Sequence record: LC788708.1
Source of the DNA: Escherichia coli phage AZ21
DNA length: 64,000 bases
Strand: one strand, 5' to 3'
Both the position numbers and the translations under genes were made by a program. Positions 7,852 through 38,782 of this stretch are shown one piece after another. The notes beneath the pieces are model-generated. The model had not been told where the DNA came from, ran no database searches, and saw only the letters and a program-made list of their open reading frames with translations. Position 1 is the stretch's first letter. Every line of letters starts with the position of its first letter.

Positions 7852-8148
7852 ATGAAACGCATTGTACTTGCATTGACTCTAGTATCTACTTCTGTATTTG
7901 CTGCTCCACAACAGGAACTTTGTCAAGTTCAAGTTTGTAATAAGCTAGAACGATTTACTTTGGATATTTGGTCACACATTAAAGATAATATGGGTGAGCA
8001 ATGTTTTGATATTGTTCTGCCAAAAGAACAAGCTGTTCCTGGTGCTGTTCTCAGCTCAGAATCACGTTGGTGGCAAGGTTCTTCTATCAATCCAACTAAG
8101 AAGTCAGTGACACGTATCAAACAAGTGTATCAGTGCAGTGTTCAGTAA
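7852..8148 (+). CDS. small secreted protein
   Basis: Signal peptide MKRIVLALTLVSTSVFAAP; RBS GAGAGAGGAATCAAATATG; upstream in-frame extension overlaps promoter so start set at 7852. Confidence 0.5.
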   Translation: MKRIVLALTLVSTSVFAAPQQELCQVQVCNKLERFTLDIWSHIKDNMGEQCFDIVLPKEQAVPGAVLSSESRWWQGSSINPTKKSVTRIKQVYQCSVQ

Positions 8149-8156
8149 AATTTCAC

Positions 8157-8185
8157 TTGCTTAATGCCGAAATTTTCTATATAAT
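8157..8185 (+). promoter_or_regulatory. T5-type early sigma70 promoter
   Basis: TTGCTT-17-TATAAT. Confidence 0.65.
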
Positions 8186-8216
8186 ATATTCTATAAATTA
8201 TAGATAGGAGTCATAT

Positions 8217-8735
8217 ATGACTGTTGACGAGTTAAAACAACATCTTTTATCTAGGGGCTTTGATAGTGATAAGTATCACTGTTGGCTCTCTCCACATGGA
8301 TGGTTAACAGTTCCACTGTATGATTTCTCTGGCATGTTACGTGGATATCAAACATATAACCCTAGTGCAGCTAAAGGTCATGGAAAATGTCCTTCTGAAG
8401 CTAAATATTTTACGCATTCTTCTACTCAATGTCTATGGGGTTTAGAAACTCTTACAGGTAATGAAGACCTAGTATTAGTTGCAGAATCTGTATTTAAAGC
8501 TGTGGCACTACACAACGCGGGATATCCCGCACTAGCAATGCTAGGATCTTCCCCTAGCAAAGCACTGCTAAAGCAGCTAAAATTACAACCTTTTAAAGTA
8601 GTAGCCGTAGGCGATAATGATTCTGCTGGTGAGAAGTTTGCTAAAAAACTAAATGGGTTTACTTCCCTCATGGATTTAGATGAAATGAATACAGAAAACT
8701 TGAAAAATTTTCTTGCCATGAAGCTAAATTTCTAA
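8217..8735 (+). CDS. Toprim-domain (DnaG-like) protein
   Basis: 172 aa; VLVAESVFKAVALHNAGYPALAMLGS...VVAVGDNDSAGEKFAKKL resembles primase Toprim E...DxD motif; no zinc-ribbon or polymerase domain. Confidence 0.45.
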   Translation: MTVDELKQHLLSRGFDSDKYHCWLSPHGWLTVPLYDFSGMLRGYQTYNPSAAKGHGKCPSEAKYFTHSSTQCLWGLETLTGNEDLVLVAESVFKAVALHNAGYPALAMLGSSPSKALLKQLKLQPFKVVAVGDNDSAGEKFAKKLNGFTSLMDLDEMNTENLKNFLAMKLNF

Positions 8736-8741
8736 TATAAT
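8713..8741 (+). promoter_or_regulatory. promoter embedded in 3' end of Toprim gene, driving tRNA-Ser/Met
   Basis: TTGCCA-17-TATAAT then TTCATAAATTTGG immediately before tRNA-Ser. Confidence 0.55.
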
Positions 8742-8755
8742 ATATTCATAAATTT

Positions 8756-8849
8756 GGAAGATTAACCCTAAAGGTAAGGGAGCTGTTTGCTAAACAGCCA
8801 GTAGCTGTGGAGACACGGTGTGCCAGTTCGAATCTGGCATCTTCCTCCA
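8756..8849 (+). tRNA. tRNA-Ser (anticodon GCU), type II
   Basis: Acceptor GGAAGAT/ATCTTCC, anticodon stem GCTGT/ACAGC with loop TTGCTAA, long variable arm CTGTG-GAGA-CACGG, T-arm GCCAG-TTCGAAT-CTGGC, CCA. Confidence 0.75.
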
Positions 8850-8854
8850 AATTT

Positions 8855-8932
8855 GGTTCTCAAGCTCATTTGGTATGAGCCGTCGCCTCATAAGCGAAAG
8901 GTAGGCAGGTTCGAATCCTCCGGGAGCCACCA
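8855..8932 (+). tRNA. tRNA-Met/Ile-type (anticodon CAU)
   Basis: Acceptor GGTTCTC/GGGAGCC (G-U pairs), D-stem GCTC/GAGC, anticodon loop CTCATAA, T-loop TTCGAAT, CCA. Confidence 0.65.
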
Positions 8933-8951
8933 AATTAAATAAGGACAACTA

Positions 8952-9140
8952 ATGGAATTATTCATAGTTTCTATTAAATTTGCACAAGATAGAGAACATT
9001 CGGACGAGTTTAAACAAGGGTACAGACTAGTAAAGGCTACATCTGAACTACATGCTATGGACAAAGTAGTAGACTATATGTATAAAGTAGAAGACGTTTA
9101 CTACGTCAATGCTTTAGAAGCCTCAAAAGTAATTAACTAG
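8952..9140 (+). CDS. hypothetical protein
   Basis: 62 aa ORF immediately after tRNA pair, RBS AAGGACAACTAATG. Confidence 0.4.
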   Translation: MELFIVSIKFAQDREHSDEFKQGYRLVKATSELHAMDKVVDYMYKVEDVYYVNALEASKVIN

Positions 9141-9148
9141 GAGACTAT

Positions 9149-9334
9149 ATGTCCAAATTTCAAGAACTCAAGCAAGAGCTAGAAGAGTGTGCCTGCCCAA
9201 AATGCTTCGGAGTAGGTGAGTGGAACGATGCTGAACCCGGTGATACACGGTATAATACATACGTTTGTACATATTGTAATGGTTCTGGTATTAATCCTGA
9301 ATGTGGTATTTCTCTAGACATTGAGCGAGGTTAA
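9149..9334 (+). CDS. small zinc-finger protein (DnaJ-type CxxCxGxG repeats)
   Basis: 61 aa; CPKCFGVGE and CTYCNGSGI motifs; RBS AGGAGACTATATG. Confidence 0.45.
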   Translation: MSKFQELKQELEECACPKCFGVGEWNDAEPGDTRYNTYVCTYCNGSGINPECGISLDIERG

Positions 9335-9674
9335 GATGGATATTTTTACTACTCCGGCAATAAACCTTTTAGGTGTTGGCTTGTTCCAAGCTACGGTGTA
9401 TCGTACTGATGATTCTACTGATGTGGTAACGTTCATCGTACCTGAGTTCTTCCTAGAAAAGTTCTTTGAAGAGTTTGAGCAGTTCCGTGAAGAACACAAT
9501 GCTCATTCCGATATGGAAGATCTAGCAGCTATGTTCCCTGCGGTTTACGGCTATATCTTTGAAGGTAATGGCCTAGATCTTAATAAATCTGAACTCGTTG
9601 AACTTAACTGGGGCATCAATTTTGAAGTTGGCTCTCCATTCCCTCGATATTTCCAGGGTTTAGAGATTCGCTAA
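9321..9674 (+). CDS. hypothetical acidic protein
   Basis: 117 aa ORF overlapping stop of upstream gene. Confidence 0.45.
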   Translation: MSEVKMDIFTTPAINLLGVGLFQATVYRTDDSTDVVTFIVPEFFLEKFFEEFEQFREEHNAHSDMEDLAAMFPAVYGYIFEGNGLDLNKSELVELNWGINFEVGSPFPRYFQGLEIR

Positions 9675-26649: not shown

Positions 26650-27539
26650 TGGGATTTTATAGTAATAGAAAACCAAAAGGTGTAACTGGTAAATTCGCAG
26701 TTGAAGAAAGACCTTTTCCACCGGTCGATGTAGAGAAACTACGTGAACTTCTAGAAATGCTAGAAGGTTGCCATGAACGTTGTTATTCTGAACTCTCTTT
26801 AAATGAGAAACGTGTTGTTGAGATGTTCTGTATTCGTTCAGCTAGAACAGCTAAAGGTACTTCTCCAAAAGATGAAGTAAAAGAGTACAGAGTTCTAGTG
26901 ATGCATGCTTGGGCACAACGTTTTGCAGTTCATTCGCTTCAGGAATGGTTTAATCTTCCAGCCTATAAAGATTTTCATGTTTACGAAGATGAGGTTATGA
27001 ATTATAATGAGTTGTATGGTTTGTCCTTCAAAAAGACAGGCTCACCGATGCATGATGCACTCAATTCATTCCCTGATCATTACCTTCCAGTTCGTGAATA
27101 TAGAGATCGTGAAGGAAATAAACCCTGCTTCACTATTTGGAATAAGTCTAAGACGATATCTGATCTAGATAATTATTGGTTTCGCACAAAAGAAGGATTC
27201 CTAGGAACAGAACCTTTACCTAAGGATCTCAAACCTATCCTTCCGCCTGCGAAACCTAAACATGAAGTAACGATTGCTATTAATAGAATAATTCTAGGAG
27301 CAGATGATCTTACTAAACAAATCGCCGCAGTTATCGCAGTTCTGTTTGACGGTACAAATTCTTCTGCACGTTATGAGAAGCTAACGGATAACAAATTGCA
27401 GATACCTAACGAGTTGTATGAGAGTTCGTGCAAGATCTATGATAACTTTAGTAAAGTAGATTACCCCGTGAGATCCATTAAAGAACTCATGGAGTATGCG
27501 GAGATGGGGATGAAAGGAAATCTCATGTTCGATGAATAA
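26649..27539 (+). CDS. hypothetical protein
   Basis: 296 aa ORF, last gene before the repeat-rich gap. Confidence 0.5.
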   Translation: MGFYSNRKPKGVTGKFAVEERPFPPVDVEKLRELLEMLEGCHERCYSELSLNEKRVVEMFCIRSARTAKGTSPKDEVKEYRVLVMHAWAQRFAVHSLQEWFNLPAYKDFHVYEDEVMNYNELYGLSFKKTGSPMHDALNSFPDHYLPVREYRDREGNKPCFTIWNKSKTISDLDNYWFRTKEGFLGTEPLPKDLKPILPPAKPKHEVTIAINRIILGADDLTKQIAAVIAVLFDGTNSSARYEKLTDNKLQIPNELYESSCKIYDNFSKVDYPVRSIKELMEYAEMGMKGNLMFDE

Positions 27540-27546
27540 ACTCTAC

Positions 27547-27575
27547 TTGACGTTATGATTTCTGCATGTTATAAT
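27547..27575 (+). promoter_or_regulatory. sigma70 promoter firing into the non-coding repeat region
   Basis: TTGACG-17-TATAAT with no ORF downstream for about 1.8 kb. Confidence 0.55.
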
Positions 27576-27903
27576 AACTCTATGAAATAACATAGAATAA
27601 AGAGATCCACCCGGATACGGATGGTGGATGGGAAACTTCTATTTCCCCCGTAGCTTGTCGGAGGGCTAGGGAAATCTTAAGAAGTTTTGTACCATCTCAC
27701 GCAATTCGTATCCCAGGGGTGGAGCATCTCTTCCAATCTTTGGGGATCTTATACTTAAATTAAAGGTAAAACTTTTGGTCACATAATTTACATTCAAGAT
27801 GATACACTGGTTGCCGCCATTCTTCCTAGGATGGCACAACACTTTCTTCTAGACTCCTAAGTTTCTAGGAATACTAACTCTAGAGTTTACACTAAACTTT
27901 GAA

Positions 27904-28641
27904 TCGGATTCGCACATGCTCTAGGGCAGTTTTTCATCTACTATAAATATCCTAGGCCGGTTTTCCTATACAGGGCGGTTATGGGGAGGGCGGTTATTTC
28001 TAGACAATAAAATTTACTCTTGTCAGTCCAGAAATTACTGTCGGATTTGCACATTGTGTTTCTAGAAATTTATGGTCGGATTTGCACAATTGCCTAAGTT
28101 TTTAGGAACATATAATCTCCTGAAAATGGCAGCATTATTTCGGGCCGAAGGCCCATGATTGCCTGAGTTTTTTTAGAGACACAGAAATTTTCACTTGTCA
28201 AGCTATTTTGCCCCATTTTGCTAATAAAATTTTACTTTATCTCCCCTAATCTCAAATTAACCCAAATCTTCTCAACTCTTCTCCAAAATCCCCGCAAATC
28301 AGGTGCTCCGCACCAAACATGCGCCCCTCCCGTAGTTCCCCCAAGTTTCTCTCGATCTCTCAACTTCTCCCCAAACTCATACAATCACACACCCTCCAAT
28401 CGAAGTCACAAAAATCTTGTCGGATTCGCACAAATAAACCCATGTCGGATTTGCACATATTCTAGTTAATTCCACAGGATTGATGCGCAGCATCGGATTG
28501 CTGGAGTTTTTGGGAGAATTCATTGTCGGATTCGCACACTATAAAAATTTTTCGGGTCGGATTTGCACACTACCAAAAATTGTCGGATTCGCACATACAC
28601 GCCCACGCGTAATCCATGGGGGCAAATGTCGGATTTGCACA
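27904..28641 (+). repeat. array of 9 direct copies of GTCGGAT(T/C)(T/C)GCACA
   Basis: Copies at about 27904, 28040, 28075, 28419, 28444, 28525, 28557, 28582, 28628, same orientation, irregular spacing, non-coding. Confidence 0.8.
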
Positions 28642-28647
28642 AAAGCG

Positions 28648-28663
28648 CAGGGCAATTGCCCTG
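28648..28663. repeat. perfect 16-bp palindrome CAGGGCAATTGCCCTG
   Basis: Exact reverse-complement symmetry. Confidence 0.8.
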
Positions 28664-28705
28664 CTTGCCTGAATGCGAATGATAATGAGAATCATTTGCA
28701 TTTAA

Positions 28706-28858
28706 AAAGCGGAATGAGAATGATAATAATTCGCATTTAAGAATGGAAGTGAGAATTATTCAGGAAGTGAAACGATTCTCATTTAAAAAGTGAAACGATT
28801 CTCATTTAGAAAGTGAAACGCGAATGATAATGATTCGTATTTAAGAATGGAAGTGAGA
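28706..28858 (+). repeat. two about 42-bp direct repeats flanking a 23-bp tandem repeat
   Basis: ATGATAAT.ATTCG.ATTTAAGAATGGAAGTGAGAA at about 28706 and 28817; GTGAAACGATTCTCATTTA(A/G)AAA x2.5 at 28767-28822. Confidence 0.75.
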
Positions 28859-28874
28859 AACACTATTATTTAAG

Positions 28875-28964
28875 TTATCCACAGACTTATCAACAGCACG
28901 ATTTGACTTGACAGAATCCTAGCCATTTTGAGGCGTTATCAACAGACTTATCAACAGCTTATCC
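28875..28964. promoter_or_regulatory. DnaA-box cluster
   Basis: TTATCCACA at 28875-28883 plus three TTATCAACA variants within 90 bp. Confidence 0.55.
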
Positions 28965-28984
28965 TACTGTATAAATATACAGTA
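28965..28984. promoter_or_regulatory. LexA (SOS) box, near-consensus
   Basis: TACTGTATAAATATACAGTA, i.e. CTGT-N8(AT-rich)-ACAG, one spacer difference from the E. coli consensus. Confidence 0.6.
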
Positions 28985-29177
28985 TTCCTATGCAGTGAAT
29001 AATTCTAATATACAGCTAAAACGCTCTCAAACGCATTCTAACGCGTTTAATTTTGGTGGGGATACTAAAACAAGGGCAAAATTGGAGGAGGCTTGAAAAT
29101 TAGTTAGCTCGCTAATGATCACACACGGCGACACGTAACACCCTAACCATTAGCAGGCTAACCATCGCGGGCGTGGT

Positions 29178-29200
29178 CAAATGAGAATGATTCTCATTTG
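29178..29200. repeat. perfect inverted repeat CAAATGAGAAT-G-ATTCTCATTTG
   Basis: 11-bp arms around a single central base. Confidence 0.8.
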
Positions 29201-29350
29201 TGGATTGGGGGCGCTTCCTGATAGTTGCGCCCCGTGATTATTATAGTAGGGGGCAACCGTTACGCTTTGCCCACTCCCGCCACTCATCTTGGTGCCTAGA
29301 CTTGCGACGGCGTACTAAAAACCGCTTGTACCAGTGATTAAACCATCGTT

Positions 29351-29554
29351 TCATAAATCCTCCTCCGGTAGTCGATGCGTGATCTTTTCCTCCTCCCCAT
29401 AGGAATCCACCAAATACTGATAATAACCATCGTGATCATAAATCACTTTATCATATTCCCCACGCTCGACCGCTTGCCGATTTTCCAACGTATCAGGCAC
29501 AAAGAAAGTATCAACGGTAACAGTAGTTTTAGTTACAACAATTTTATCACTCAT
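29351..29554 (-). CDS. hypothetical small acidic protein
   Basis: 67 aa; last gene of tightly packed minus-strand operon; start overlaps upstream tiny ORF. Confidence 0.45.
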   Translation of the reverse strand: MSDKIVVTKTTVTVDTFFVPDTLENRQAVERGEYDKVIYDHDGYYQYLVDSYGEEEKITHRLPEEDL

Positions 29555-29680
29555 AATGCCATCGCCCCTAGAATGAGAATGATTATCAATATCATTGTGA
29601 AGCCATTACCAAATCGTAAACGCTGGGAATGTTTCCCAGCGGTATTATTAGACTTATGGCTTTGTGTTTTTCGCCACCAG

Positions 29681-29881
29681 CTATTCACGGTAGACGCTCC
29701 ATCCGTCTAGCTTCCATTCTTCCCCCTTGCGAATATTGAAAAACCAATCATTAAAATTGTAACCATCTTCTGACATGATCACGCCGTTTTCTTTCATGTA
29801 CAAAAATTCATCACTAGTAAAATATTGATTACTAACTTTAAAACCTTGTTTCATTTTTTCTAGTGCTTCATCTTTAGTCAT
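29681..29881 (-). CDS. hypothetical small acidic protein
   Basis: 66 aa; ATGA-type overlap with upstream gene. Confidence 0.45.
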   Translation of the reverse strand: MTKDEALEKMKQGFKVSNQYFTSDEFLYMKENGVIMSEDGYNFNDWFFNIRKGEEWKLDGWSVYRE

Positions 29882-30222
29882 TGCGCCACCTTTCGAAACG
29901 CTGTTTCAATACTATCCGCAGTGGATTGAATATATGCGCCTTTGAGTATCAGCCGCTCGGTGCATATCTTGCGAAAAATATTAATAAAATCGTCCTCATT
30001 TTCTGCGATTAATGCCTCACCCATAACCTGAACGTCGCAAGATGCAAAGGTCAAAAATTGAAACGCTAGTTCACGGGCAACGACCGCATTGATTTTATAA
30101 TGCGCCTTGCCTTCATAGATATTAATAACGCCCTTATAAGCTGGCGAAAGCTGATTTAAGTAGTTTGCTAATAATGCCGGACGGCAATTAGCAACAAAAC
30201 GATTGCCCTCATAAATAACCAT
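29878..30222 (-). CDS. hypothetical protein
   Basis: 114 aa, minus-strand operon member. Confidence 0.5.
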   Translation of the reverse strand: MVIYEGNRFVANCRPALLANYLNQLSPAYKGVINIYEGKAHYKINAVVARELAFQFLTFASCDVQVMGEALIAENEDDFINIFRKICTERLILKGAYIQSTADSIETAFRKVAQ

Positions 30223-30349
30223 TTGATAGTCTCCCGATTAGATAGCCAGATAATAACATAAAGATCCCCAATAAAAGAGGATCATTCTTAAATAAGGTGG
30301 CGGTAAAACCGCCAACCATTGCAAGGAGAATAACAATAATGCTTTTCAT
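30209..30349 (-). CDS. small membrane protein (46 aa)
   Basis: MKSIIVILLAMVGGFTATLF hydrophobic ORF; ATG overlaps stop of upstream gene (ATGA) and its stop overlaps next start. Confidence 0.3.
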   Translation of the reverse strand: MKSIIVILLAMVGGFTATLFKNDPLLLGIFMLLSGYLIGRLSNGYL

Positions 30350-30558
30350 AGTACCCCACGAAACGCAGCGTAAAAGGTGGCAAAGTGTTTAACTGTTTCA
30401 GCAATCACGTTGCCGCGCTTATCAAATTTCTTTTCTGTAACACGAAAGGCATTTTTATTACGTGCTACATATTCGATTTTACAATCTTCCCGCTCGAACG
30501 TGTTAACATCCACCAGCTTAAAGCCTTTCGAACGTGCAAGAGAAACGTTGCGGATCAT
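30346..30558 (-). CDS. hypothetical basic protein
   Basis: 70 aa ORF in minus operon. Confidence 0.45.
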   Translation of the reverse strand: MIRNVSLARSKGFKLVDVNTFEREDCKIEYVARNKNAFRVTEKKFDKRGNVIAETVKHFATFYAAFRGVL

Positions 30559-30560
30559 TT

Positions 30561-30743
30561 TTATTCCCCTTTACTAGTCATGCAGCCCAGCAGATAAGAA
30601 AATACAGCGATGCCAGCACCAATAGTAACCATTGGTTTTATATTTACTAAACCGCAATAGGAATCCTGAATACCATAAGCGGTGGCGAAAAGAGTCAAAA
30701 TAGCGCCCAAGATACCCGCTAAAATAGCTCGAAAAATAACCAT
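30561..30743 (-). CDS. small membrane protein
   Basis: 60 aa with two hydrophobic helices; preceded by GGGGCG-loop-CGCCCC hairpin. Confidence 0.45.
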   Translation of the reverse strand: MVIFRAILAGILGAILTLFATAYGIQDSYCGLVNIKPMVTIGAGIAVFSYLLGCMTSKGE

Positions 30744-30792
30744 TTGTAATACTCCTCTAGTTAGTGGGGCGAAAGTAACGCCCCGTTATTAA

Positions 30793-31023
30793 TTACATTA
30801 AAATAATTTTTGCCGCTTGTTTTTTGGTACAGTGTTCCGCTTTCAGGGTGTCCAGCAAAAAGCCCGCCGTTTGCTGATCGATTTTATCGGCATTATATAG
30901 TTCTTGGATGGTGTTATAAGTTTTAGCAATGCCGTATTCTTGTACCATTTCTTGAATAATCCAGCGATTTGATACCCAGCCTTTACCAGTGAAAAGAGCG
31001 TCAGAAGAAGAGTAAGCAACCAT
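30793..31023 (-). CDS. hypothetical protein
   Basis: 76 aa from ATG with RBS GGAGGCTTAAAATG (minus strand); longer track ORF lacks RBS. Confidence 0.45.
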   Translation of the reverse strand: MVAYSSSDALFTGKGWVSNRWIIQEMVQEYGIAKTYNTIQELYNADKIDQQTAGFLLDTLKAEHCTKKQAAKIILM

Positions 31024-31086
31024 TTTAAGCCTCCAAATTTTTGGGAAAATTTTCAACCGTCCTCAAACGGTGTAAAGGCATTATAA

Positions 31087-31115
31087 CAAAAAAGGCCGCC
31101 ATAAAAGGCGACCTT
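31087..31115 (-). terminator. rho-independent terminator (minus strand)
   Basis: AGGTCGCC-loop-GGCGGCCT hairpin followed by TTTTTT on minus strand, right after the stop of 31130-31624. Confidence 0.5.
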
Positions 31116-31129
31116 TACAAAACTTTACA

Positions 31130-31624
31130 TTAAACTACTTGTAAGGATTCAATATTGAAACATCGTTTCAGTTCGTCATGCAAAACGGCATATTCATCCC
31201 ATCGGGTACTATCAGGAATATAAACAAGCTGTTTTAATCGGTTTGCATATATTACCGCTTTGTTATCAATTATCTCGACGCCACCATATTTAATAATTAA
31301 TTTCATGACGGAATTAATAGGATCGCCGCCGTTTACATATGCGCCGGATTTACTTAATTGATAATGATAAAGGCTTGCATATACGTTTTCATTTTCATAC
31401 CATTCGCCAGTCTCTTCGTCTTCATAGCCATCGCTACCAAAACGAGAAGCATTATCAACAGCCATTTCATGAGCAAAAGCGTCCAGATCCGTACCAGCAG
31501 GAACAAAATATTCCTCGGTATTCCCTTCCCCGCAATAGCCAGTATGACAATCGACTAAAATGATCATATCATGTTTAGCCTTGCTCACTTCCCCTAGCGA
31601 GAAGCCGTATTTTTCTTCTAACAT
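31130..31624 (-). CDS. hypothetical acidic protein
   Basis: 164 aa from ATG with RBS GGAGAC; acidic run DGYEDEETGEWYENENVY. Confidence 0.5.
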   Translation of the reverse strand: MLEEKYGFSLGEVSKAKHDMIILVDCHTGYCGEGNTEEYFVPAGTDLDAFAHEMAVDNASRFGSDGYEDEETGEWYENENVYASLYHYQLSKSGAYVNGGDPINSVMKLIIKYGGVEIIDNKAVIYANRLKQLVYIPDSTRWDEYAVLHDELKRCFNIESLQVV

Positions 31625-31688
31625 AATTAGTCTCCTATTAATTAACAAGGAAATAGTAAAGCGGGGAAATAATCCCCGCTAGATATTA

Positions 31689-31922
31689 TTACTCGTTTTC
31701 GGTGTTAGTGGTAAAAGTAGAGATATCGATACCTTTTACCATTTCATCGATCATCTCAGCGATGTTAAAACTTTGCACCATTTCTAACATTGCCGCTTCC
31801 ATAGCCGCCCCTGCTACCGCTTTCGCTTTCTGATTAGTCGGGGCGTACTGGTCAACCGCTACACTCAGCAGGTTAGCGATCACTACACGACCAATCGGCG
31901 TATCAATATAGCCTTTGATCAT
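31689..31922 (-). CDS. hypothetical protein, possibly C-terminal part of a frameshifted gene
   Basis: 77 aa ORF overlapping end of 31903-32694 by 20 nt; reachable by +1 shift at an A7 run. Confidence 0.4.
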   Translation of the reverse strand: MIKGYIDTPIGRVVIANLLSVAVDQYAPTNQKAKAVAGAAMEAAMLEMVQSFNIAEMIDEMVKGIDISTFTTNTENE

Positions 31923-32694
31923 AAACGGTGCTTTTTTTAGCCGCTACTTTCGTGATTTGAGTTAGTGCAATTTTACCAGCTTCCAGTTTTGCAGCGTTTA
32001 CAACAGCGGATTTATTAGCGGCAACGATATTAGCGATCTTGGTCATGGTATTTTTTCCTTTGTTTTCAGTAGTTTGAGTATTAACGCTTTGAGTGTTAGA
32101 GCTTACAACCTGTTTTTCAATATTGTCAACTGGTTTTAGTGTAAATCCAGCATTTGCAACGTTTGATTCATTCCCATACTCTAAATAATCACTAGGGATC
32201 AACATGTTGCCACTAGCGCGTTCAAAACATAACACGCCAGTTGTAGAAATTACATTACTATCAGCACTTTTGTAATTAGCTGATAGTTCACGCCAAATGC
32301 TAGTTAATAACGATCCGACACTATCAGTCCTGATATTACTTACTTTTGTTGCTGTTACTTGCTCTTTTTCTTGCACGTTATATAATCGCGCAATGTAACC
32401 ACTATTAGATTCACTATAACCAACAATGATAAAATCAATATCTCTTCCACGTTGATTGCGGAAAATGTGATAATCACGGTTGAAAATTACTAGCGCCCTT
32501 TTCTGGTCTAGTAATTGTGTGAAATCTTCAACTGAATAATGAGTACCCTCATCGTCTAAAATTCTATCATGAATCTTTTCGATAATAGTAGCGGTATGCT
32601 GTACGCTTGCCGCGCTACTACCCTCTAACAGATTGCGCAAACTGCCTTTAATAATAGTGGCGTTTGCTGGTACTGCAATTCTTACAGTAGACAT
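31903..32694 (-). CDS. hypothetical protein (first gene of minus-strand operon)
   Basis: 263 aa ORF, Ser/Thr/Asn-rich middle, Ala/Lys-rich C-terminus; ends just after A7 homopolymer. Confidence 0.5.
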   Translation of the reverse strand: MSTVRIAVPANATIIKGSLRNLLEGSSAASVQHTATIIEKIHDRILDDEGTHYSVEDFTQLLDQKRALVIFNRDYHIFRNQRGRDIDFIIVGYSESNSGYIARLYNVQEKEQVTATKVSNIRTDSVGSLLTSIWRELSANYKSADSNVISTTGVLCFERASGNMLIPSDYLEYGNESNVANAGFTLKPVDNIEKQVVSSNTQSVNTQTTENKGKNTMTKIANIVAANKSAVVNAAKLEAGKIALTQITKVAAKKSTVYDQRLY

Positions 32695-32960
32695 TTTATT
32701 TTGTCTCCCTCGTTAATCGGTGAGTGAATGATAAGGGTAATTTTCTAGCATAGGCAAATATTATTTTACTTTTTTATTTTCCTTGCCTAGCGTCTAATTT
32801 TATGCTAACCGCGCAGCGGTGCAATAAAGAGCAAACCACGGCGAAGCCACCAGCCCGACGCATTGAGGCTTTACTTTAATATTACCTTACAGCGTTTAGC
32901 TCGTTAGAATGCGTTTTGGGCCACTTAAAATTGATTGCAGTTGTTAACACTACCTTTCTA

Positions 32961-32980
32961 CCCTGTATATTTATACAGTG
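32961..32980. promoter_or_regulatory. LexA (SOS) box
   Basis: CCCTGTATATTTATACAGTG with perfect CTGT-N8-ACAG core, about 270 bp upstream of the first minus-strand gene. Confidence 0.55.
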
Positions 32981-32988
32981 GAATAACC

Positions 32989-33397
32989 TGTGGATAAGTC
33001 TGTGCAAAAGTCCTTATATCACCGCCTATCGTGTCAAGTTATTTTGTGCTGTGGAAAACATTGTGGATAACTTAAATGATAGTGCTTCTCACTTAGGCTA
33101 ATGATTTCTTATAGTTATTATTTCTCATTAATTTATAAGTATATTATATATTATCAAATAGTTAGTTGGCTAATGAGATTTTCCGTGATTAATAGTCTGC
33201 TAATAATTCAGGTCGTTACAATCCACCAGCATGATTATCATTCTAGCAATTATTAGTCTGCTATCTTTCCGATACATACTAACAAATAAAAGTCAATTAA
33301 TTTATTTCATAAAATAAGTAGTTATCCACTGGAAAATAAAAGTCAAGTGGATAACTAGGAAAATTTCATTTTTGCTTTTGGGGATAAGTTATCAACA
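32989..33397. promoter_or_regulatory. DnaA-box cluster
   Basis: TGTGGATAA at 32989 and 33062, TTATCCAC at 33322, GTGGATAA at 33347, TTATCAACA at 33389. Confidence 0.55.
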
Positions 33398-33799
33398 AGG
33401 CTAGAATGCGCCTAAAACGCTCCAGAACGCGATGAAGTTTTTAGCCACCCCATCATAAGGGGATAGGCCGTTTATCGCTGCCACGAGCTTTTTAGATTTT
33501 GTCAAGTAGGGGAAAGCAAATATAAATGAAAAAATTACTTGCCTATTTGCTTTATTTTGTGGTATTCGCGCCCGTTTCTTTTAATTTTAGGCCGTCGCCG
33601 GACGTGGTGCGGTGAATTTTGTCTTTACGTTTCTTTACAAAAATAAGGTTGCGCCATTTTCGGGAATCCCCTATTATTTATCACGTAGGGCGGCAATGAC
33701 GAACTACACGGCGGGAAGTTTACCGCCACGCTCTTTAAAAATTGGGTACATCTTAAAGCCTATCGGCGGTAAACTTATTTATTATAAGGAATCGACGAT

Positions 33800-34012
33800 A
33801 TGAAACAAACTTTATTGATCACTGGCAAGCCTATTAAGGCACTAGATAGCAAAACAAAAAATTTGTTGACAGTAGCGCAAAGATCGGTAAAATACCGATT
33901 CACGCAGTACAAGAAAGACCGCCAGCAAGGTTTAGAAATGATCTGGCGAAACATTATGATTGACTTGAAAGAAAATCATAAAAAACTGCAAAAAAATTAT
34001 TTGACAACCTAG
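33800..34012 (+). CDS. hypothetical ORF (doubtful)
   Basis: 70 aa ORF but contains internal TTGACA-17-TAAAAT promoter-like sites; may be non-coding. Confidence 0.2.
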   Translation: MKQTLLITGKPIKALDSKTKNLLTVAQRSVKYRFTQYKKDRQQGLEMIWRNIMIDLKENHKKLQKNYLTT

Positions 34013-34233
34013 CCGATAGGTTTTAAGATGTACCCAGTTCGATAAGAGCGATAACTTGATAAAATTTGACGGTCGGTGCTTACCATAATGCGCCCCGCCC
34101 CCTAACGGGATATAGCGGCCTACGTGGAGTTCTTTAAATTGATTATAGCGGCGAGAGGATTGTTACTTATTACCTGCTAGTATTTTCTAGTAGGTAATAA
34201 GTAACAATCCATCAAATAACTGGAGTTTATATT

Positions 34234-34485
34234 ATGCAAAACGTTATTACCGCGCCTAAAATTGGTCAATCCGTCTTTATTCCTTTCGTTACTAAAACGG
34301 ATGAATTAACCGGAAAGGCCGAACGTATTAAAGGTGCGGCGCTTATGCCGTTCGATACAATCGACGCGGTATATGCTGAAAATGAACGCAGTAACAACGG
34401 CAAGCCCGTTTTTAGCGTTCGCGTTAAATCCGGCGATGTTGTAAAGGTTGTTCAACGCAACGAAAAATGGGAAGCTGTGTTGTAA
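34234..34485 (+). CDS. pre-early hypothetical protein
   Basis: 83 aa, RBS AACTGGAGTTTATATTATG; followed by perfect 9-bp hairpin. Confidence 0.5.
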   Translation: MQNVITAPKIGQSVFIPFVTKTDELTGKAERIKGAALMPFDTIDAVYAENERSNNGKPVFSVRVKSGDVVKVVQRNEKWEAVL

Positions 34486-34583
34486 TTTAGTGTTAACTTT
34501 ATATCCCCCTTATTTCAGGGGGATATAACGATTAACATTAAGTTAATCTAATCCCTTAAATTAAACTAATAGGAGTTTTTACC

Positions 34584-34991
34584 ATGACTAACGCAAAAAC
34601 CGCAAAATTCGCATGGAATGAAGAAAACACTCAGAAAGCTGTTACCATGTACCAGCAGTTAATCAACGAAAACGGTTTAGATTTTGCAAATAGCGACGGC
34701 CTGAAAGAGATTGCAAAAGCAGTAGGCGCGGCCTCCCCCGTATCCGTTCGGTCAAAATTGACCAGTGCAAAAGCCTATCAAAAAAGCGATAAGCCGCGTA
34801 AAGTTGGCGGCGGTAGCTCTGTGCGTAAAGCTCACTATGTGCGAGTAATTGCAAAACACGCTATCGATTCCGGTATTATCAAAGACGCCGATGATCTGGC
34901 AAGCCTTGAAAGTGCTAAACTGGAAACGCTGGACGCGGTGGCGCAACTGTTAGGCGTTGCCGATGAAGTAAAACAAGCCGTAGGTGAATAA
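34584..34991 (+). CDS. pre-early hypothetical protein
   Basis: 135 aa, RBS AGGAG; followed by GCCCCCT-loop-AGGGGGC hairpin. Confidence 0.5.
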   Translation: MTNAKTAKFAWNEENTQKAVTMYQQLINENGLDFANSDGLKEIAKAVGAASPVSVRSKLTSAKAYQKSDKPRKVGGGSSVRKAHYVRVIAKHAIDSGIIKDADDLASLESAKLETLDAVAQLLGVADEVKQAVGE

Positions 34992-35081
34992 TAGTTATAC
35001 CTTGCCCCCTTCTAGTGAGGGGGCACTAATATAACTGTTTAGCGATAGTTATTTTCTTCCCTTAAATCAGGAGTTTTAAAA

Positions 35082-35279
35082 ATGGTTTTCTTCCCTACTG
35101 AATCTTTGATTCTAGGCTTGTTTATTATGGCGGCCTCATTATTGTTCGCTTATTTTCAGAATGATTTAGATTCGTATTATTTTAAACGTAAATCTAAATT
35201 AGCAAAACGTTTGGGCTTGCTTTGTTTTATCGCTGCCGTTGCCTGTGGTGTTAGTTCGAGTCTAGTACCATTAAATTAA
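35082..35279 (+). CDS. small membrane protein
   Basis: 65 aa with two hydrophobic helices; RBS AGGAG. Confidence 0.4.
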   Translation: MVFFPTESLILGLFIMAASLLFAYFQNDLDSYYFKRKSKLAKRLGLLCFIAAVACGVSSSLVPLN

Positions 35280-35366
35280 TGTTGCAAATTATAACGCCTA
35301 TTATTCGAGGCGTTATATTTGGCAATATTGCCATTATTAACCTAATCCCTTTAATGGAGTTTTATT

Positions 35367-37037
35367 ATGATTATTTCCGCAGAAAAACAAACCGTTATCC
35401 TGAAAATGGCCGCTGATTTCAATTTCTACGGTAAACGCCTGCGCGCCACTAAACTGGAGGTCTGCGACGATATTTCAAAAGCGGTCTACGATACAACGAA
35501 ACACTCCACCGCTATCTGCGACTGGCTGGAAGCAAATAAACCAGCGAAACCAAAAGCGGCAAAAGTAGCAAAAGCCATTAAAAACGGTGAGCGCCCCGAA
35601 GCGGCTGGGATTGTTTCTAGTACCGTGGAGCAGTGGGAAGTAAAACAAGGTAAACGCTTTATTATTACATCGATTCAGAATAATACTTTCCCGCATAAAA
35701 ACTTTTTAGCCTCACTGGAGCAATTTGCTAAATATATCGGGGCTGATTTGCTCGTTTCTAAGTATATTTATAATAAAAACGGTTTTCAAAATGGGGAAGG
35801 TGCTGACGGAATCAAATATGATTCCGCGTTTGATAAATATATTTGCAGCAAAAACGTGTTTTTGAATAACCGCCGCTTTGCTTTCATGGCTGAAATTAAT
35901 GTTTTGCCTACCGCAGATTATCCGCTTTCTGGATTCGCAGAAACTGCAACGGCTTTAAATATTGAAGGTCTGGCAATTGGTCACGCTAAAATTACCGCTG
36001 AAAGCGTACCAGCTTTAAAAGGTGAAGTAGTGCGCCGTATGTACTCAACCGGAACGGCAACGCTCAAAAACTACATTCAGCAGAAAGCAGGACAAAAGGC
36101 CGAGGCGCTGCATAACTTCGGTGCGCTTATTGTTGAGTTCGACGAGGACGGGGAATTTTTTGTACGCCAGCTTGAAACGATGGACGAAAGCGGGGTATTT
36201 TATGATCTGAATGTGTGTGCTACTCCTGCCGGATGCTATGAAACATCGGGGCATGTTTTAGGCTTGCAGTATGGCGATATTCACGCCGAAAAATTAGATG
36301 AGGAGTGCGCCGCCGCGTCATGGGGGCATGGTGATACTTATGGGCTAGTAGATATTCTTAAACCAAAATATCAGTTTGTGCATGACGTGCATGATTTTAC
36401 ATCGCGCAATCATCATAACCGCGCATCGGGTGTATTCCTAGCAAAACAGTACGCCGCCGGACGTGATAAGGTTATTGATGATCTTATCGATACGGGGCGC
36501 GTGCTGGAATCAATGGAGCGTGATTTTTCTCAAACAATCATTGTTGAATCGAATCACGATTTGGCGTTATCCCGTTGGCTTGATGATCGTAATGCTAACA
36601 TCAAAGACGATCCAGCAAACGCAGAACTGTATCACCGCCTGAATGCTGCAATTTACGAGGCAATCGGTGAACATGACGAAACGTTCAACGTGCTAGATTA
36701 TGCGCTGCGCAAGGTTGCAGGTTGTGAGTTTAACGCCATTTTCCTGACCACTGACCAATCTTTCAAGATTGCAGGCATTGAATGCGGCGTACACGGTCAC
36801 AACGGCATTAATGGCAGTCGTGGCAATCCCAAACAATTTAAGAAATTGGGCAAGTTAAACACTGGTCATACTCATACGGCAAGCATTTACGGCGGGGTAT
36901 ATACCGCTGGCGTAGCTGGTAGTCTGGATATGGGTTACAACGTTGGCGCGTCAAGCTGGACGCAAACTCATTTAATTACCTATGCAAACGGTCAGCGCAC
37001 TTTGATTGACTTTAAGAACGGTAAATTTTTTGCGTAA
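35367..37037 (+). CDS. A1: A1-like pre-early protein, calcineurin-like metallophosphatase (Mre11/SbcD-type nuclease fold)
   Basis: 556 aa (size of the T5 A1 product as I recall it); GDIH, ESNHD, HGHNG, GHTHT metallophosphatase motifs in order; sits with dmp-like gene. Confidence 0.7.
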   Translation: MIISAEKQTVILKMAADFNFYGKRLRATKLEVCDDISKAVYDTTKHSTAICDWLEANKPAKPKAAKVAKAIKNGERPEAAGIVSSTVEQWEVKQGKRFIITSIQNNTFPHKNFLASLEQFAKYIGADLLVSKYIYNKNGFQNGEGADGIKYDSAFDKYICSKNVFLNNRRFAFMAEINVLPTADYPLSGFAETATALNIEGLAIGHAKITAESVPALKGEVVRRMYSTGTATLKNYIQQKAGQKAEALHNFGALIVEFDEDGEFFVRQLETMDESGVFYDLNVCATPAGCYETSGHVLGLQYGDIHAEKLDEECAAASWGHGDTYGLVDILKPKYQFVHDVHDFTSRNHHNRASGVFLAKQYAAGRDKVIDDLIDTGRVLESMERDFSQTIIVESNHDLALSRWLDDRNANIKDDPANAELYHRLNAAIYEAIGEHDETFNVLDYALRKVAGCEFNAIFLTTDQSFKIAGIECGVHGHNGINGSRGNPKQFKKLGKLNTGHTHTASIYGGVYTAGVAGSLDMGYNVGASSWTQTHLITYANGQRTLIDFKNGKFFA

Positions 37038-37093
37038 TTAAATTATTTCCCTAGCGGCTTGAAATACAGCCGCTATTACAGGAGCTAAATTAA

Positions 37094-37372
37094 ATGGCTA
37101 TTAAAATTAATCTTCCCAATATTAAAAACACCGCTGATATATGGTCGATTGATACTATATTGCGTGGCACTGTATACCGTAATTTAAAAGATAATAATTG
37201 TTATATTTATCAAAATGAATTAAACGGCCATATTTACATAATCGAGTCCGATGGTTTTTGTTCTTTTGAGACTGATTATGAAGCGCAAGATCATATACAG
37301 GCAAATGATATTCCTGACGTATGGAAAGAAACAAACCTTGCTTTTGTTGTAAGTCTTGAAGCTAACAAATAA
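37094..37372 (+). CDS. pre-early hypothetical protein
   Basis: 92 aa ORF downstream of A1-like gene, RBS AGGAGCTAAATTAAATG. Confidence 0.45.
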   Translation: MAIKINLPNIKNTADIWSIDTILRGTVYRNLKDNNCYIYQNELNGHIYIIESDGFCSFETDYEAQDHIQANDIPDVWKETNLAFVVSLEANK

Positions 37373-37410
37373 ATTAAATATCTTATTAAATTAATTGGAG
37401 TTTTACAAAT

Positions 37411-37803
37411 ATGAAAAAGCAAAATATTCCATTCGATCGCGCTCAGTCTTCTATTGTTCTGGTTTATTCTAATGGTGAGCGTTACCACGTCGAGGCGGGG
37501 CACGTTATTGATGAATTATTAGATTTCAATGACGCTTTACAGGTTACTACCTTTGCCTACACGCAAGGCCGCGCAAGTAGTTACATTAAGGCCGCAGGCG
37601 TTTATGTTGACACGGTGAAACAAGAAACGATTATCATCGACGCAGTAAAATCCGGTCTAGCCTTTGCAGTTGTCGCGCCTTGCCCCTCTTGTCTTGATGA
37701 TCAGCTAACGAGTGCGAAAGTATACACCTGCGCGGGCATTCGTTCCCATGTATCAGGAGAGGATATTAGTTTTATCGCTGATGCGTTGGCTTATGGTCTT
37801 TAA
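37411..37803 (+). CDS. pre-early hypothetical protein (possible A2 equivalent)
   Basis: 130 aa ORF downstream of A1-like gene; assignment by position only. Confidence 0.4.
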   Translation: MKKQNIPFDRAQSSIVLVYSNGERYHVEAGHVIDELLDFNDALQVTTFAYTQGRASSYIKAAGVYVDTVKQETIIIDAVKSGLAFAVVAPCPSCLDDQLTSAKVYTCAGIRSHVSGEDISFIADALAYGL

Positions 37804-37883
37804 TAGTTGATTTATTATTGCCCGCTGATAGATAGCGGGCAATGCTGGATAAACTACATCCCTTTAATGGAGAACGTAACAAA

Positions 37884-38618
37884 ATGAATCAAGTTAAAAC
37901 GAATATTTCCCGTAACTTCCCGCATATTTCCCGCGTCATGATCTGGGATCTTGATGGCACTATCGTTAATTCATTCCATCGTGTAGCGCCTTGCTTTGAT
38001 AGTGAGGGTAATCTAGATTTAAATAAGTATAAGAATGAGGCTTGCAAACATGATTTAATAATGCAGGATACTTTATTGCCTTTGGTGGAATATATGCGCC
38101 AATGCATGAATGACGCAAATACTTTAAACATTATTTGTACCGCTCGATTAATGAGCAAATCGGATTATTATTATTTGCGCAAACAAGGCTTGCGAGGGCG
38201 TGGGGATAGCAATATCCGCGTGTTTTCCCGCGACACGCTGCATAAATATTTTGAAGCTGATAAGGTTAGCGAGATATACCACAGTAAAGACGCAGTTTAT
38301 AAATCGTATTACTTTGAATTATTTAAACAGCTATATCCGAACGCTGATTTCACAATGATTGATGATCATAAAGGTGTATTATCAGCGGCGGCGTCATACG
38401 GATTTAAAACGCTAGACGCGCAAGCCGTTAACGATATTCTATCAATCGGCGTGGCATTGATAGGCGGAACCTTTATTGATGAATCTCTCGATGATGATAA
38501 TGATTATCAGTTCCTAGCCGATCGATTGAAATTATGTTGGGAAAGTATGACCGAAGAAGAACGCGCAGAATATAGTTGCAGCCCGCAACAATATATTGAG
38601 AAATTAAAAGTTGCGTAA
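37884..38618 (+). CDS. dmp: HAD-family 5'-deoxyribonucleotidase (dmp-like)
   Basis: VMIWDLDGTIVNS (HAD motif I DxDGT); RBS GGAGAACGTAACAAAATG; pre-early context. Confidence 0.65.
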   Translation: MNQVKTNISRNFPHISRVMIWDLDGTIVNSFHRVAPCFDSEGNLDLNKYKNEACKHDLIMQDTLLPLVEYMRQCMNDANTLNIICTARLMSKSDYYYLRKQGLRGRGDSNIRVFSRDTLHKYFEADKVSEIYHSKDAVYKSYYFELFKQLYPNADFTMIDDHKGVLSAAASYGFKTLDAQAVNDILSIGVALIGGTFIDESLDDDNDYQFLADRLKLCWESMTEEERAEYSCSPQQYIEKLKVA

Positions 38619-38782
38619 TAATTAAAGTTGAAATAGTTTCATCCTGCAATTAAAATGGTTGCGGGATGAAACAATTACCCTGCTAATAGTAACGGGGGTG
38701 GCGGTTAGCAGACTAAGTATTCTCCCCCAACCCACTGGACACACCTCCATGTGTAATCCTATGAAATTTGGCAAAAGTCAAA

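What the first reader, a model, noticed from the sequence alone, without database searches (positions are those of the whole stretch)
28875..33397. Two DnaA-box clusters flanking the minus-strand block
Clusters of TTATCCACA/TTATCAACA-type sites occur at 28875-28964 and 32989-33397, several in inverted pairs. That density suggests DnaA titration, an origin-like element, or use of DnaA as an architectural factor during the injection pause.
Basis: partly seen in the sequence, partly recalled or inferred. Interest (0 to 1): 0.55.

Follow-up and report, generated by a model that had tools for sequence, protein, structure and literature searches.

The report
Known T5 DnaA-box inverted repeats
The two clusters of DnaA-type sites are real and far above chance, but they are the already published inverted-repeat arms of the first-injected DNA of T5-like phages, whose role in pausing genome injection has been proposed and never tested.

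Summary
The window is a T5-like coliphage (100% identical to phage AZ23 over 28400-33800), reversed relative to the T5 map. The finding lies in the terminal repeat, which is the first-step-transfer DNA.

The boxes are real. Four lie at 28875-28956 (+), four at 32989-33070 (-), and four weaker ones at 33322-33397. No shuffle of 300 reached four boxes in 100 bp. All three perfect TTATCCACA sites in about 102 kb fall in the two main clusters.

Those two clusters are the arms of one 132-nt inverted repeat (28851-28982 / 32963-33094). They match T5 IRD'-spacer-IRC' and IRC-spacer-IRD, whose eight DnaA boxes were first noted in 1987, according to Davison (2020), who proposed them as the injection stop signal. 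So the feature is already known, and DnaA binding remains untested.

- Each arm ends in a near-consensus LexA-type palindrome at a fixed distance from the boxes. It is conserved as far as a Vibrio phage.
- Fur-box-like palindromes are enriched in the terminal repeat.
- Proximal arms keep consensus boxes, while distal arms keep TTATCAACA-type variants.
- The flanked gene block is inverted in Klebsiella and Pectobacterium relatives.
- Primer mapping shows a viable published T5 mutant lacks the proximal arm.

Origin and titration readings are not supported.

The parts
28851..28984 (+). Distal arm of the inverted repeat (homologue of T5 IRD'-spacer-IRC', the injection-stop-signal candidate). Order: conserved outer flank AAGTGAGAAACACT, box pair, spacer with TTGACA, box pair, LexA-type palindrome.
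   Evidence: Inverted repeats I1 and I2, 83% complementary. Aligned with T5 9310-9480. Box offsets 0/12/61/73 are identical to T5.
28875..28883 (+). Distal box 1, TTATCCACA (with its flanks, GTTATCCACAG, the same 11-mer as oriC R1 and R4).
   Evidence: TTATCCACA in 20 of 28 distinct distal arms.
28887..28895 (+). Distal box 2, TTATCAACA (C6 to A, outside the TTWTNCACA consensus).
28936..28944 (+). Distal box 3, TTATCAACA.
28948..28956 (+). Distal box 4, TTATCAACA, followed by a degenerate third unit TTATCCTAC (28959-28967).
28965..28984 (.). LexA-type (SOS-box) palindrome TACTGTATAAATATACAGTA, 19 of 20 identical to the consensus TACTGTATATATATACAGTA. Equivalent to T5 'palindrome D'.
   Evidence: The core starts 19 nt after the start of box 4 in every phage examined.
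32961..33094 (-). Proximal arm of the inverted repeat (homologue of T5 IRC-spacer-IRD), lying between the two divergent pre-early transcription units.
32961..32980 (.). LexA-type palindrome of the proximal arm (core CTGTATATTTATACAG, 32963-32978).
32989..32997 (-). Proximal box 4, TTATCCACA.
33001..33009 (-). Proximal box 3, TTTTGCACA (fits TTWTNCACA).
33050..33058 (-). Proximal box 2, TTTTCCACA.
33062..33070 (-). Proximal box 1, TTATCCACA.
33319..33397 (.). Separate, lineage-restricted sub-cluster B2. It holds the inverted pair TAGTTATCCACTGGA / TCAAGTGGATAACTA, then back-to-back TTATCCCCA(-) and TTATCAACA(+).
   Evidence: (I22). Partly kept in EPS7 and Klebsiella Kpn2-P1; absent from T5, SPC35 and Gostya9.
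29351..32694 (-). Variable block of small pre-early genes enclosed by the arms. It includes a split DUF7566 gene, a homologue of the Ung-dependent nickase family (phrog_4227), and unknowns.
   Evidence: The block is inverted in Klebsiella and Pectobacterium relatives.
32728..32757 (-). Promoter-like site (TTGCCT-18-TATCAT) with an A-rich upstream region, placed before the first gene of the block. It lies inside the arms, not in them.
   Evidence: Its position matches the annotated T5P4 promoter upstream of T5 ORF011.
28675..28734 (.). Fur-box-like palindromes within direct repeats, just outside the distal arm (T5 palindromes G and I, next to the 7.9% nick and shear point).
28419..28641 (+). 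Six copies of GTCGGATTYGCACA (T5 'direct repeat D'), part of the same non-coding injection-stop region.
   Evidence: (D5).

Best explanation
The clusters are the two arms of the conserved ~132-nt inverted repeat of the first-step-transfer DNA of T5-like phages (T5 IRD'-spacer-IRC' and IRC-spacer-IRD).

Each arm has a fixed layout: outer flank, a head-to-tail pair of DnaA-type boxes, a spacer, a second pair, and a LexA-type palindrome.

The most likely working is that the arms are landing pads for host DNA-binding proteins that already exist in the cell. DnaA is the main candidate, and probably LexA on the adjoining palindrome. These proteins would load as soon as this DNA enters, with no need for phage protein synthesis.

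The distal arm lies just inside the point where injection pauses. There the resulting protein-DNA complex would organise or hold the end of the injected segment, so it is part of the injection stop signal. The proximal arm is an accessory copy.

Shown here: identity with the T5 arms, non-random clustering, family-wide conservation, fixed geometry, and dispensability of the proximal arm. Inferred: that DnaA (and LexA) actually bind, and that binding contributes to the pause.
For: - Identity and position. The window is 100% identical to Tequintavirus AZ23 over 28400-33800. The region maps to the annotated left terminal repeat of relatives.
- Match to T5. The arms align with T5 9310-9480 and 6005-6175 at 80% mean column identity, with identical box spacing.
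- Non-randomness.
- Box quality. Box 1 with its flanks equals the 11-mer of the two highest-affinity oriC boxes, R1 and R4. My recalled oriC sequence was verified at 100% identity against E. coli genomes.
- Conservation. The arm is found in 541 phage records.
- Conservation with an independent anchor. When arms were located by their outer flank alone, boxes 1 and 4 fit the DnaA consensus in 29 and 27 of 33 distinct arms, and the palindrome was present in 31 of 33.
- Distant relative. A Vibrio phage keeps TTATCCACA-nnn-TTATCCACAG plus CTGTATAAATAAACAG, although its A2 and A1 proteins are only 41% and 32% identical. That fits constraint by a highly conserved host protein.
- No rival identity. 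There is no host homologue of the arm, no RNA family, and no excess of promoter-like sites.
- Geometry. T5 annotation and Davison place the shear point (about 9618) and the 7.9% nick (9661-9668) 150-200 bp beyond the arm. The arm has therefore just entered the cell when transfer stops.
- Literature. The same proposal has been published.
Against: - No experiment has tested DnaA binding or function here. Papers from 2023 and 2026 say so explicitly or still describe the mechanism as poorly understood.
- The distal arm, the one next to the pause, carries mostly non-consensus boxes (TTATCAACA / TTATTAACA, C6 to A). These variants are themselves conserved, which may point to a different binding partner.
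- Conserved columns extend well beyond the boxes: the outer flank AAGTGAGAANCACT and the spacer TTGACA.
- A T5 mutant whose deletion (about 5393-9081 by my primer mapping) removes the whole proximal arm is viable. Any mechanism that needs both arms is therefore not essential.
- A protein bound to DNA already inside the cell does not by itself explain why further entry stops. An anchoring step has to be assumed.
Confidence: 0.5

Rival explanations
1. The repeated motif is bound by phage proteins rather than by DnaA. A2 is the DNA-binding protein needed, with A1, to resume transfer. The likeness to DnaA boxes would then be incidental or mimicry, and the arms would be the sites where A1/A2 release the pause or shut off pre-early transcription.
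For: - The conserved unit is longer than a DnaA box (CAGACTTATCNACAG plus the flanks) and tolerates C6 to A.
- A1 and A2 co-occur with the arms in every relative examined, including the Vibrio phage.
Against: - The commonest box is exactly the host consensus TTATCCACA.
- The sites stay the same while A2 drifts to 41% identity.
- The pause itself occurs without protein synthesis (Davison section 4.1.1). Phage proteins therefore cannot set it up, although they could act at release.
- A2 shows no similarity to DnaA domain IV.
Confidence: 0.2
2. The arms are transcription control or insulator elements. Host DnaA and LexA bound at the borders of the variable block would repress or block RNA polymerase, keeping the strong pre-early transcription units apart and away from DNA still in the tail.
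For: - The arms bracket the block exactly, whatever its orientation.
- Weak promoter-like matches overlap the boxes and the palindrome, for example TTGATA-17-AATAAT at 28893-28865 and TTAACA-16-TATATT at 32944-32971.
- DnaA boxes and LexA operators are classical repressor sites (established knowledge).
Against: - Promoter-like sites are not enriched (26 found against 19.2 +/- 4.8 expected).
- The promoter-like site before the block's first gene lies about 200 bp away from the palindrome, at the position annotated as a promoter in T5.
- Terminator-like hairpins already lie within the block and just beyond the distal arm.
Confidence: 0.15
3. The arms matter mainly as homology: conserved borders that let the accessory pre-early block be swapped or flipped by recombination between co-infecting phages. 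The boxes would be passengers.
For: - The block is inverted, with gene order kept, in Klebsiella Kpn2-P1 and Pectobacterium My1 relative to AZ23, T5 and EPS7.
- Block content and length vary greatly between phages while the arms stay put.
Against: - Homology alone does not explain why specific 9-mers, their spacing and the palindrome are kept at proteins-at-32%-identity distances.
- It also does not explain why the two arms differ in a conserved way.
Confidence: 0.07
4. The region is a DnaA-dependent replication origin or a DnaA sink.
For: Eight boxes (B1 plus B2) flank a 250-bp stretch of 70-74% A+T.
Against: - The distal arm has no such stretch.
- T5 origins map elsewhere, and T5 replication genes arrive only with the second transfer step.
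- A mutant lacking the proximal arm is viable.
- The number of sites is small compared with the host chromosome.
Confidence: 0.03

Closest known systems
T5 inverted repeats IRD'-spacer-IRC' (9332-9462) and IRC-spacer-IRD (6022-6152) with their eight DnaA/DnaA* boxes (annotated in GenBank AY587007; boxes first noted in 1987 according to Davison 2020, bioRxiv 10.1101/866236)
   Same: - Same place in the terminal repeat and same ~131-nt arms.
- Same two pairs of boxes 3 bp apart, with identical offsets (0/12/61/73).
- Same palindrome D at the inner end.
- 80% mean column identity in a four-way alignment.
   Different: - AZ23 has all eight boxes, where T5 has seven.
- AZ23 lacks the HNH-endonuclease insertion next to the proximal arm.
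- AZ23 carries an extra sub-cluster (33319-33397) that T5 lacks.
High-affinity DnaA boxes R1 and R4 of E. coli oriC and their neighbouring low-affinity arrays
   Same: The 11-mer GTTATCCACAG is identical. A strong box is followed head-to-tail by weaker variants, as in the oriC arrays (established knowledge).
   Different: - The period is 12 bp here, against 2-bp gaps in the oriC arrays (from memory, not tested).
- There are no 13-mer unwinding repeats next to the distal arm.
- The arm has no homology to any E. coli locus.
- No replication role is expected.
datA / DARS-type chromosomal DnaA-regulatory clusters, and plasmid origins with flanking DnaA boxes (P1 oriR)
   Same: A handful of DnaA boxes clustered in non-coding DNA; in P1 oriR, two sets at either end of the element (from memory).
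   Different: The element is on a virulent phage. No iterons with a Rep gene were seen, no IHF site was shown, and there is no evidence of an effect on the DnaA nucleotide state.
LexA operators (SOS boxes) of Gammaproteobacteria, CTGT-N8-ACAG
   Same: 28965-28984 matches the 20-nt consensus at 19 positions. Variants seen in relatives (CTGG, CCAG, central A/T changes) are those found in natural operators (the operator knowledge is from memory).
   Different: The palindrome does not overlap a convincing promoter. It sits in a virulent phage with no known SOS link, and binding is untested.

Membership tests
T5-type IRD'-spacer-IRC' / IRC-spacer-IRD arms | A pair of ~131-nt inverted repeats inside the terminal repeat. 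| tested here: met
   Arms 28851-28982 and 32963-33094, 83% complementary. The region lies in the annotated LTR of relatives.
T5-type IRD'-spacer-IRC' / IRC-spacer-IRD arms | One arm in the large non-coding region at the inner end of the repeat, the other between the two divergent pre-early gene groups. | tested here: met
   Gene maps of AZ23, MM-1 and T5.
T5-type IRD'-spacer-IRC' / IRC-spacer-IRD arms | Two pairs of DnaA or DnaA-like boxes per arm, 3 bp apart within a pair, with a constant spacer between pairs. | tested here: met
   Offsets 0/12/61/73 in both AZ23 arms and in T5.
T5-type IRD'-spacer-IRC' / IRC-spacer-IRD arms | Sequence homology to the T5 arms. | tested here: met
   Four-way alignment at 80% mean column identity. 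The arm was found in 541 phage records.
Functional DnaA binding site | Match to TTWTNCACA. | tested here: met
   Five of the eight arm boxes fit (all four proximal, one distal). The other three are TTATCAACA.
Functional DnaA binding site | DnaA protein binds the site. | not testable with these tools
   Needs a footprint, gel shift or ChIP. The literature says this has not been done.
DnaA-dependent replication origin | An AT-rich unwinding element adjoining the boxes. | tested here: inconclusive
   GC is 0.26-0.30 at 33000-33350, next to the proximal arm only. The distal arm has none.
DnaA-dependent replication origin | The element is needed for replication or viability. | tested here: not met
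   The published viable T5 mutant lacks the proximal arm, by primer mapping. This applies to the proximal arm only.
LexA operator (SOS box) | A CTGT-N8-ACAG palindrome with an A/T-rich centre. | tested here: met
   28967-28982 and 32963-32978. These are two of only four CTGT-N8-ACAG matches in about 102 kb, and the only two with an A/T-only centre.
LexA operator (SOS box) | The site overlaps a promoter that it represses. | tested here: inconclusive
   Only weak promoter-like matches overlap it.
LexA operator (SOS box) | LexA binds the site. | not testable with these tools
   Needs a footprint or ChIP.
Fur box | Match to GATAATGATAATCATTATC. | tested here: met
   Four loci with at most 4 mismatches in the terminal repeat, against 0.07 expected. 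Binding is untested.

The most novel reading that the evidence does not exclude
The non-coding arms and neighbouring repeats of the first-injected DNA may be a composite landing pad for three host regulators: DnaA (the box quartets), LexA (a near-consensus operator fixed 19 nt from the last box) and Fur (palindromes in and around the injection-stop region).

Under this reading, the pause and resumption of genome entry, or the pre-early programme, would be wired to the host's replication, DNA-damage and iron status.

I found no mention of the LexA-type or Fur-type sites in the searchable literature. The older subscription papers could not be read.
Probability: 0.2. Interest if true: 0.65.

Novelty: already known. 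Interest (0 to 1): 0.3.

Why it matters
How T5 stops after injecting 8% of its genome and then restarts has been open since the 1960s. These arms are the leading cis-acting candidate.

The DnaA boxes themselves add nothing new. The additional observations do sharpen the experiments:
- A host LexA-type operator is built into each arm.
- Fur-like palindromes sit at the shear point.
- The two arms differ in a conserved way.
- An existing viable mutant already lacks the proximal arm. Mutating the distal arm in that background is now a clean test of the DnaA model.

Tried and rejected
- RNA family search of 27500-34500 at a permissive threshold found nothing.
- Search for a host homologue of the arm in 5,426 E. 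coli genomes found nothing, so the arm is not a copied host locus.
- Promoter scan: promoter-like sites are not enriched (26 against 19.2 +/- 4.8). The conserved TTGACA in the spacer has no -10 partner at a workable distance, so 'the arm is a promoter' was dropped (and inspection).
Only one of these had T5-like genes or arm context, so it was useless for sampling arms. I replaced it with two T5-specific anchors.
- The idea that A2 mimics DnaA domain IV was rejected. The profile comparison gave 0.8% probability, and the fold search gave GcrA/Myb-like hits instead.
- A2 against solved structures by sequence found nothing.
- Accession NC_019919 (Yersinia phiR2-01) is not in the collection.
- Davison 2015 could not be read by DOI or PMC id. 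Heusterspreute 1987 was not attempted. I therefore cannot exclude that the LexA-type or Fur-type sites were mentioned there.
- A long-range RNA duplex between the arms (an RNase III target) was considered. It was set aside because the promoter-like site before the block lies inside the arms and a strong terminator-like hairpin sits at 31116-31091.

Full report
**What the window is.** Bases 28400-33800 are 100% identical to Escherichia coli phage AZ23 (LC788707.1, Tequintavirus). They are 84-93% identical to the other listed T5-like phages of Escherichia and Salmonella. In well-annotated relatives the region lies inside the left terminal repeat. The window is reversed relative to the standard T5 map. 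The genes for A2 (34584-34991), A1 (35367-37037) and dmp (37842-38618) run rightwards. The 'minus-strand block' (29351-32694) corresponds to T5 genes 011-017. By collinearity with phage MM-1, the terminal repeat spans roughly 28180-38730; this is an inference. The finding therefore sits in the first-step-transfer DNA, the 8% of the genome that enters the cell before injection pauses.

**Checking the observation.**
- Cluster A has four boxes on the + strand at 28875, 28887, 28936 and 28948: one TTATCCACA and three TTATCAACA.
B1 has four boxes on the - strand at 32989, 33001, 33050 and 33062, all fitting TTWTNCACA. B2 (33322-33397) has two inverted TTATCCACT sites plus back-to-back TTATCCCCA and TTATCAACA.
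- Four boxes within 100 bp occurs twice in the window and in none of 300 dinucleotide-preserving shuffles. Eight within 600 bp compares with a shuffle maximum of four.
- I joined the window to the rest of the AZ23 record to approximate the genome at about 102 kb. The join is approximate, because the window and the record are not perfectly collinear. In it, the only three perfect TTATCCACA sites lie in the arms. Box density is 32.9 per kb in the arms plus B2 against 0.39 per kb elsewhere.

**What the clusters are.** A and B1 are the two arms of one inverted repeat: 28851-28982 and 32963-33094, 83% complementary. They align with T5 9310-9480 and 6005-6175 at 80% mean column identity. GenBank AY587007 annotates those T5 regions as inverted repeats D'/C' and C/D. 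Box offsets within an arm (0, 12, 61, 73) are the same in AZ23 and T5.

Davison's preprint 'Phage T5 two-step injection' (bioRxiv 10.1101/866236) describes exactly this: eight DnaA or DnaA-like boxes, in pairs 3 bp apart, two pairs per arm, in 25 T5-like phages. It credits the first sighting to a 1987 paper. It proposes that membrane-bound DnaA holds the incoming DNA at these boxes, so that they form the injection stop signal. A 2023 paper on phage BF23 states that experimental studies of these sites are lacking, and a 2026 paper still calls the mechanism poorly understood. The finding is therefore a rediscovery of a known feature with an untested function.

**How conserved the module is.**
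- The 146-nt arm is found in 541 phage records, usually twice per record, or four times where both terminal repeats are given. These include Klebsiella phages at 74-79% identity and part of a Vibrio phage.
- In eight phages from five genera, each arm shows the same order: box pair, spacer, box pair, palindrome.
- A composite motif taken from the inner end of the arm occurs in 47 stretches of the 2.9 million viral contigs. All are from 96-123 kb T5-like genomes.
- To avoid circularity I re-sampled arms with an anchor in the outer flank only. Among 33 distinct arms, boxes 1 and 4 fit the DnaA consensus in 29 and 27. Boxes 2 and 3 are variable. The palindrome is present at the expected offset in 31.
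- The Vibrio phage keeps TTATCCACA-nnn-TTATCCACAG followed by CTGTATAAATAAACAG, although its A2 and A1 proteins are only 41% and 32% identical to those of AZ23.
- Box 1 with its flanks (GTTATCCACAG) is the same 11-mer as oriC boxes R1 and R4. I wrote the oriC sequence from memory and confirmed it at 100% identity in E. coli genomes.

**Things the published description does not mention, as far as I could check.**

First, the inner end of each arm is a LexA-type operator. 28965-28984 reads TACTGTATAAATATACAGTA, 19 of 20 identical to the consensus. The second copy has the core CTGTATATTTATACAG at 32963-32978. These are two of only four CTGT-N8-ACAG matches in about 102 kb. The core always begins 19 nt after the start of box 4. 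T5 annotates the distal copy only as 'palindrome D'. The words LexA and SOS do not occur in Davison's preprint. No paper in the searchable library links LexA or Fur boxes with T5-like phages. Davison 2015 could not be read, and I did not try to obtain the 1987 paper.

Second, palindromes of the type GAGAATGATwATCATTCTC, two to four mismatches from the Fur box, occur at 28681, 28716, 29575 and 38490. That is four loci against 0.07 expected in shuffles of the terminal repeat. Similar palindromes occur near the distal arm in the seven other phages scanned. In T5 they are palindromes G and I, beside the estimated shear point and the 7.9% nick.

Third, the arms differ in a conserved way. Proximal arms carry consensus boxes at about 80% of positions. 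Distal arms keep TTATCCACA mainly at box 1 and, in half of them, at box 4. At boxes 2 and 3 they hold TTATCAACA or TTATTAACA. Variation falls mostly on box positions 5 and 6.

Fourth, the block enclosed by the arms is inverted, with gene order kept, in Klebsiella Kpn2-P1 and Pectobacterium My1 relative to AZ23, T5, SPC35 and EPS7. That is what recombination between the arms would produce.

Fifth, a 2026 preprint describes a viable T5 mutant deleted 'from hegG to 017'. Its primers map to 5360-5392 and 9082-9107 of AY587007. The deletion therefore removes the whole proximal arm (6022-6152) and leaves the distal arm. The proximal quartet is thus dispensable under laboratory conditions, and a mechanism that needs both arms cannot be essential.

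**Mechanism.** I commit to the host-factor reading. The arms are landing pads for proteins already present in the cell, DnaA and probably LexA. The distal arm is part of the injection stop signal.

The arguments for this:
- The commonest box exactly matches the strongest natural DnaA sites.
- The sites are preserved while the phage's own DNA-binding protein diverges.
- The pause does not require protein synthesis.
- The distal arm lies 150-200 bp inside the shear point.

The arguments against:
- There are no binding data.
- The non-consensus boxes in the distal arm are themselves conserved.
- Conserved sequence in the arm goes well beyond the boxes.
- An anchoring step must be assumed to explain why entry stops.

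I put this at 0.5.

**Verdict.** Novelty is 'already known'. Interest is 0.3 for the finding as given. The most novel reading not excluded is a composite DnaA/LexA/Fur landing pad that ties genome entry to host state. I give it a probability of about 0.2 and an interest of about 0.65 if true.

Noticed in passing
window 28965-28984 and 32961-32980: Each arm ends in a near-consensus LexA-type SOS box (19 of 20 and 16 of 20 matches to TACTGTATATATATACAGTA). It sits at a fixed 19 nt from the last DnaA box and is conserved in T5, SPC35, Gostya9, EPS7, Klebsiella, Pectobacterium and Vibrio relatives. T5 annotates the distal copy only as 'palindrome D'. I found no mention of LexA in the accessible literature.
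   Followed up: yes
window 28681-28699, 28716-28734, 29575-29593, 38490-38508 (also 29180-29198): Fur-box-like palindromes (GAGAATGATwATCATTCTC type, 2-4 mismatches to the Fur consensus) are confined to the terminal repeat: four loci against 0.07 expected. Similar palindromes occur near the distal arm in the seven other phages scanned. In T5 they lie beside the shear point and the 7.9% nick. The one at 29575 lies 21-39 nt upstream of the start of ORF 29351-29554.
   Followed up: partly
window 29351-32694; loci L124 7777-10237 and L129: The gene block between the arms is inverted, with gene order preserved, in Klebsiella phage Kpn2-P1 and Pectobacterium phage My1 relative to AZ23, T5 and EPS7. 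This is as expected from recombination between the inverted arms.
   Followed up: yes
L003 (T5 AY587007) 5393-9081: Primers of a published viable T5 multi-deletion mutant map so that the deletion removes the entire proximal arm (6022-6152) and keeps the distal arm. The accessible text of that paper does not mention these repeats.
   Followed up: yes
window 31689-32694 (- strand), overlap at 31903-31922: Two overlapping ORFs (263 and 77 aa) together cover one Pfam family (DUF7566, profile positions 1-257 and 260-336). The break is at a run of seven A on the coding strand. The gene is fused in SPC35, EPS7 and Kpn2-P1 and split in T5. This could be a frameshift, slippage or a sequencing artefact.
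   Followed up: partly
window 28419-28641: Six copies of GTCGGATTYGCACA (T5 'direct repeat D') lie between the Fur-like repeats and the end of the terminal repeat. Their binding partner is unknown.
   Followed up: no
window 33100-33270; L127 (Gostya9) about 9000-9150: The AT-rich stretch beside the proximal arm holds three copies of AGTYKGCTAAT. It also holds a 15-nt unit (TATAGTTATTATTTC) that is single in AZ23 but tandemly expanded (about eight copies) in Gostya9.
   Followed up: no
loci L004-L123 (IMG/VR): Head-to-tail pairs TTATCCACAG-NN-TTATCCACAG, often in longer arrays, occur in more than 120 viral contigs. Only one of them had T5-like genes or arm context. Tandem DnaA-type boxes at a 12-bp period therefore appear to be common in phage DNA generally.
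   Followed up: partly
[not shown]
   Followed up: partly
window 29681-29881 (- strand): A 66-aa ORF gives a sub-threshold match to the Thoeris anti-defence Tad2-like domain (E 0.005, 17.8 bits against a cut-off of 25).
   Followed up: no
window 1 and 63818: The window is not perfectly collinear with LC788707.1. The offset between window and record differs by about 1.8 kb between window position 1 and position 28400. The start of the record is found at window 63818, so the window runs across the ends of that linear record.
   Followed up: no
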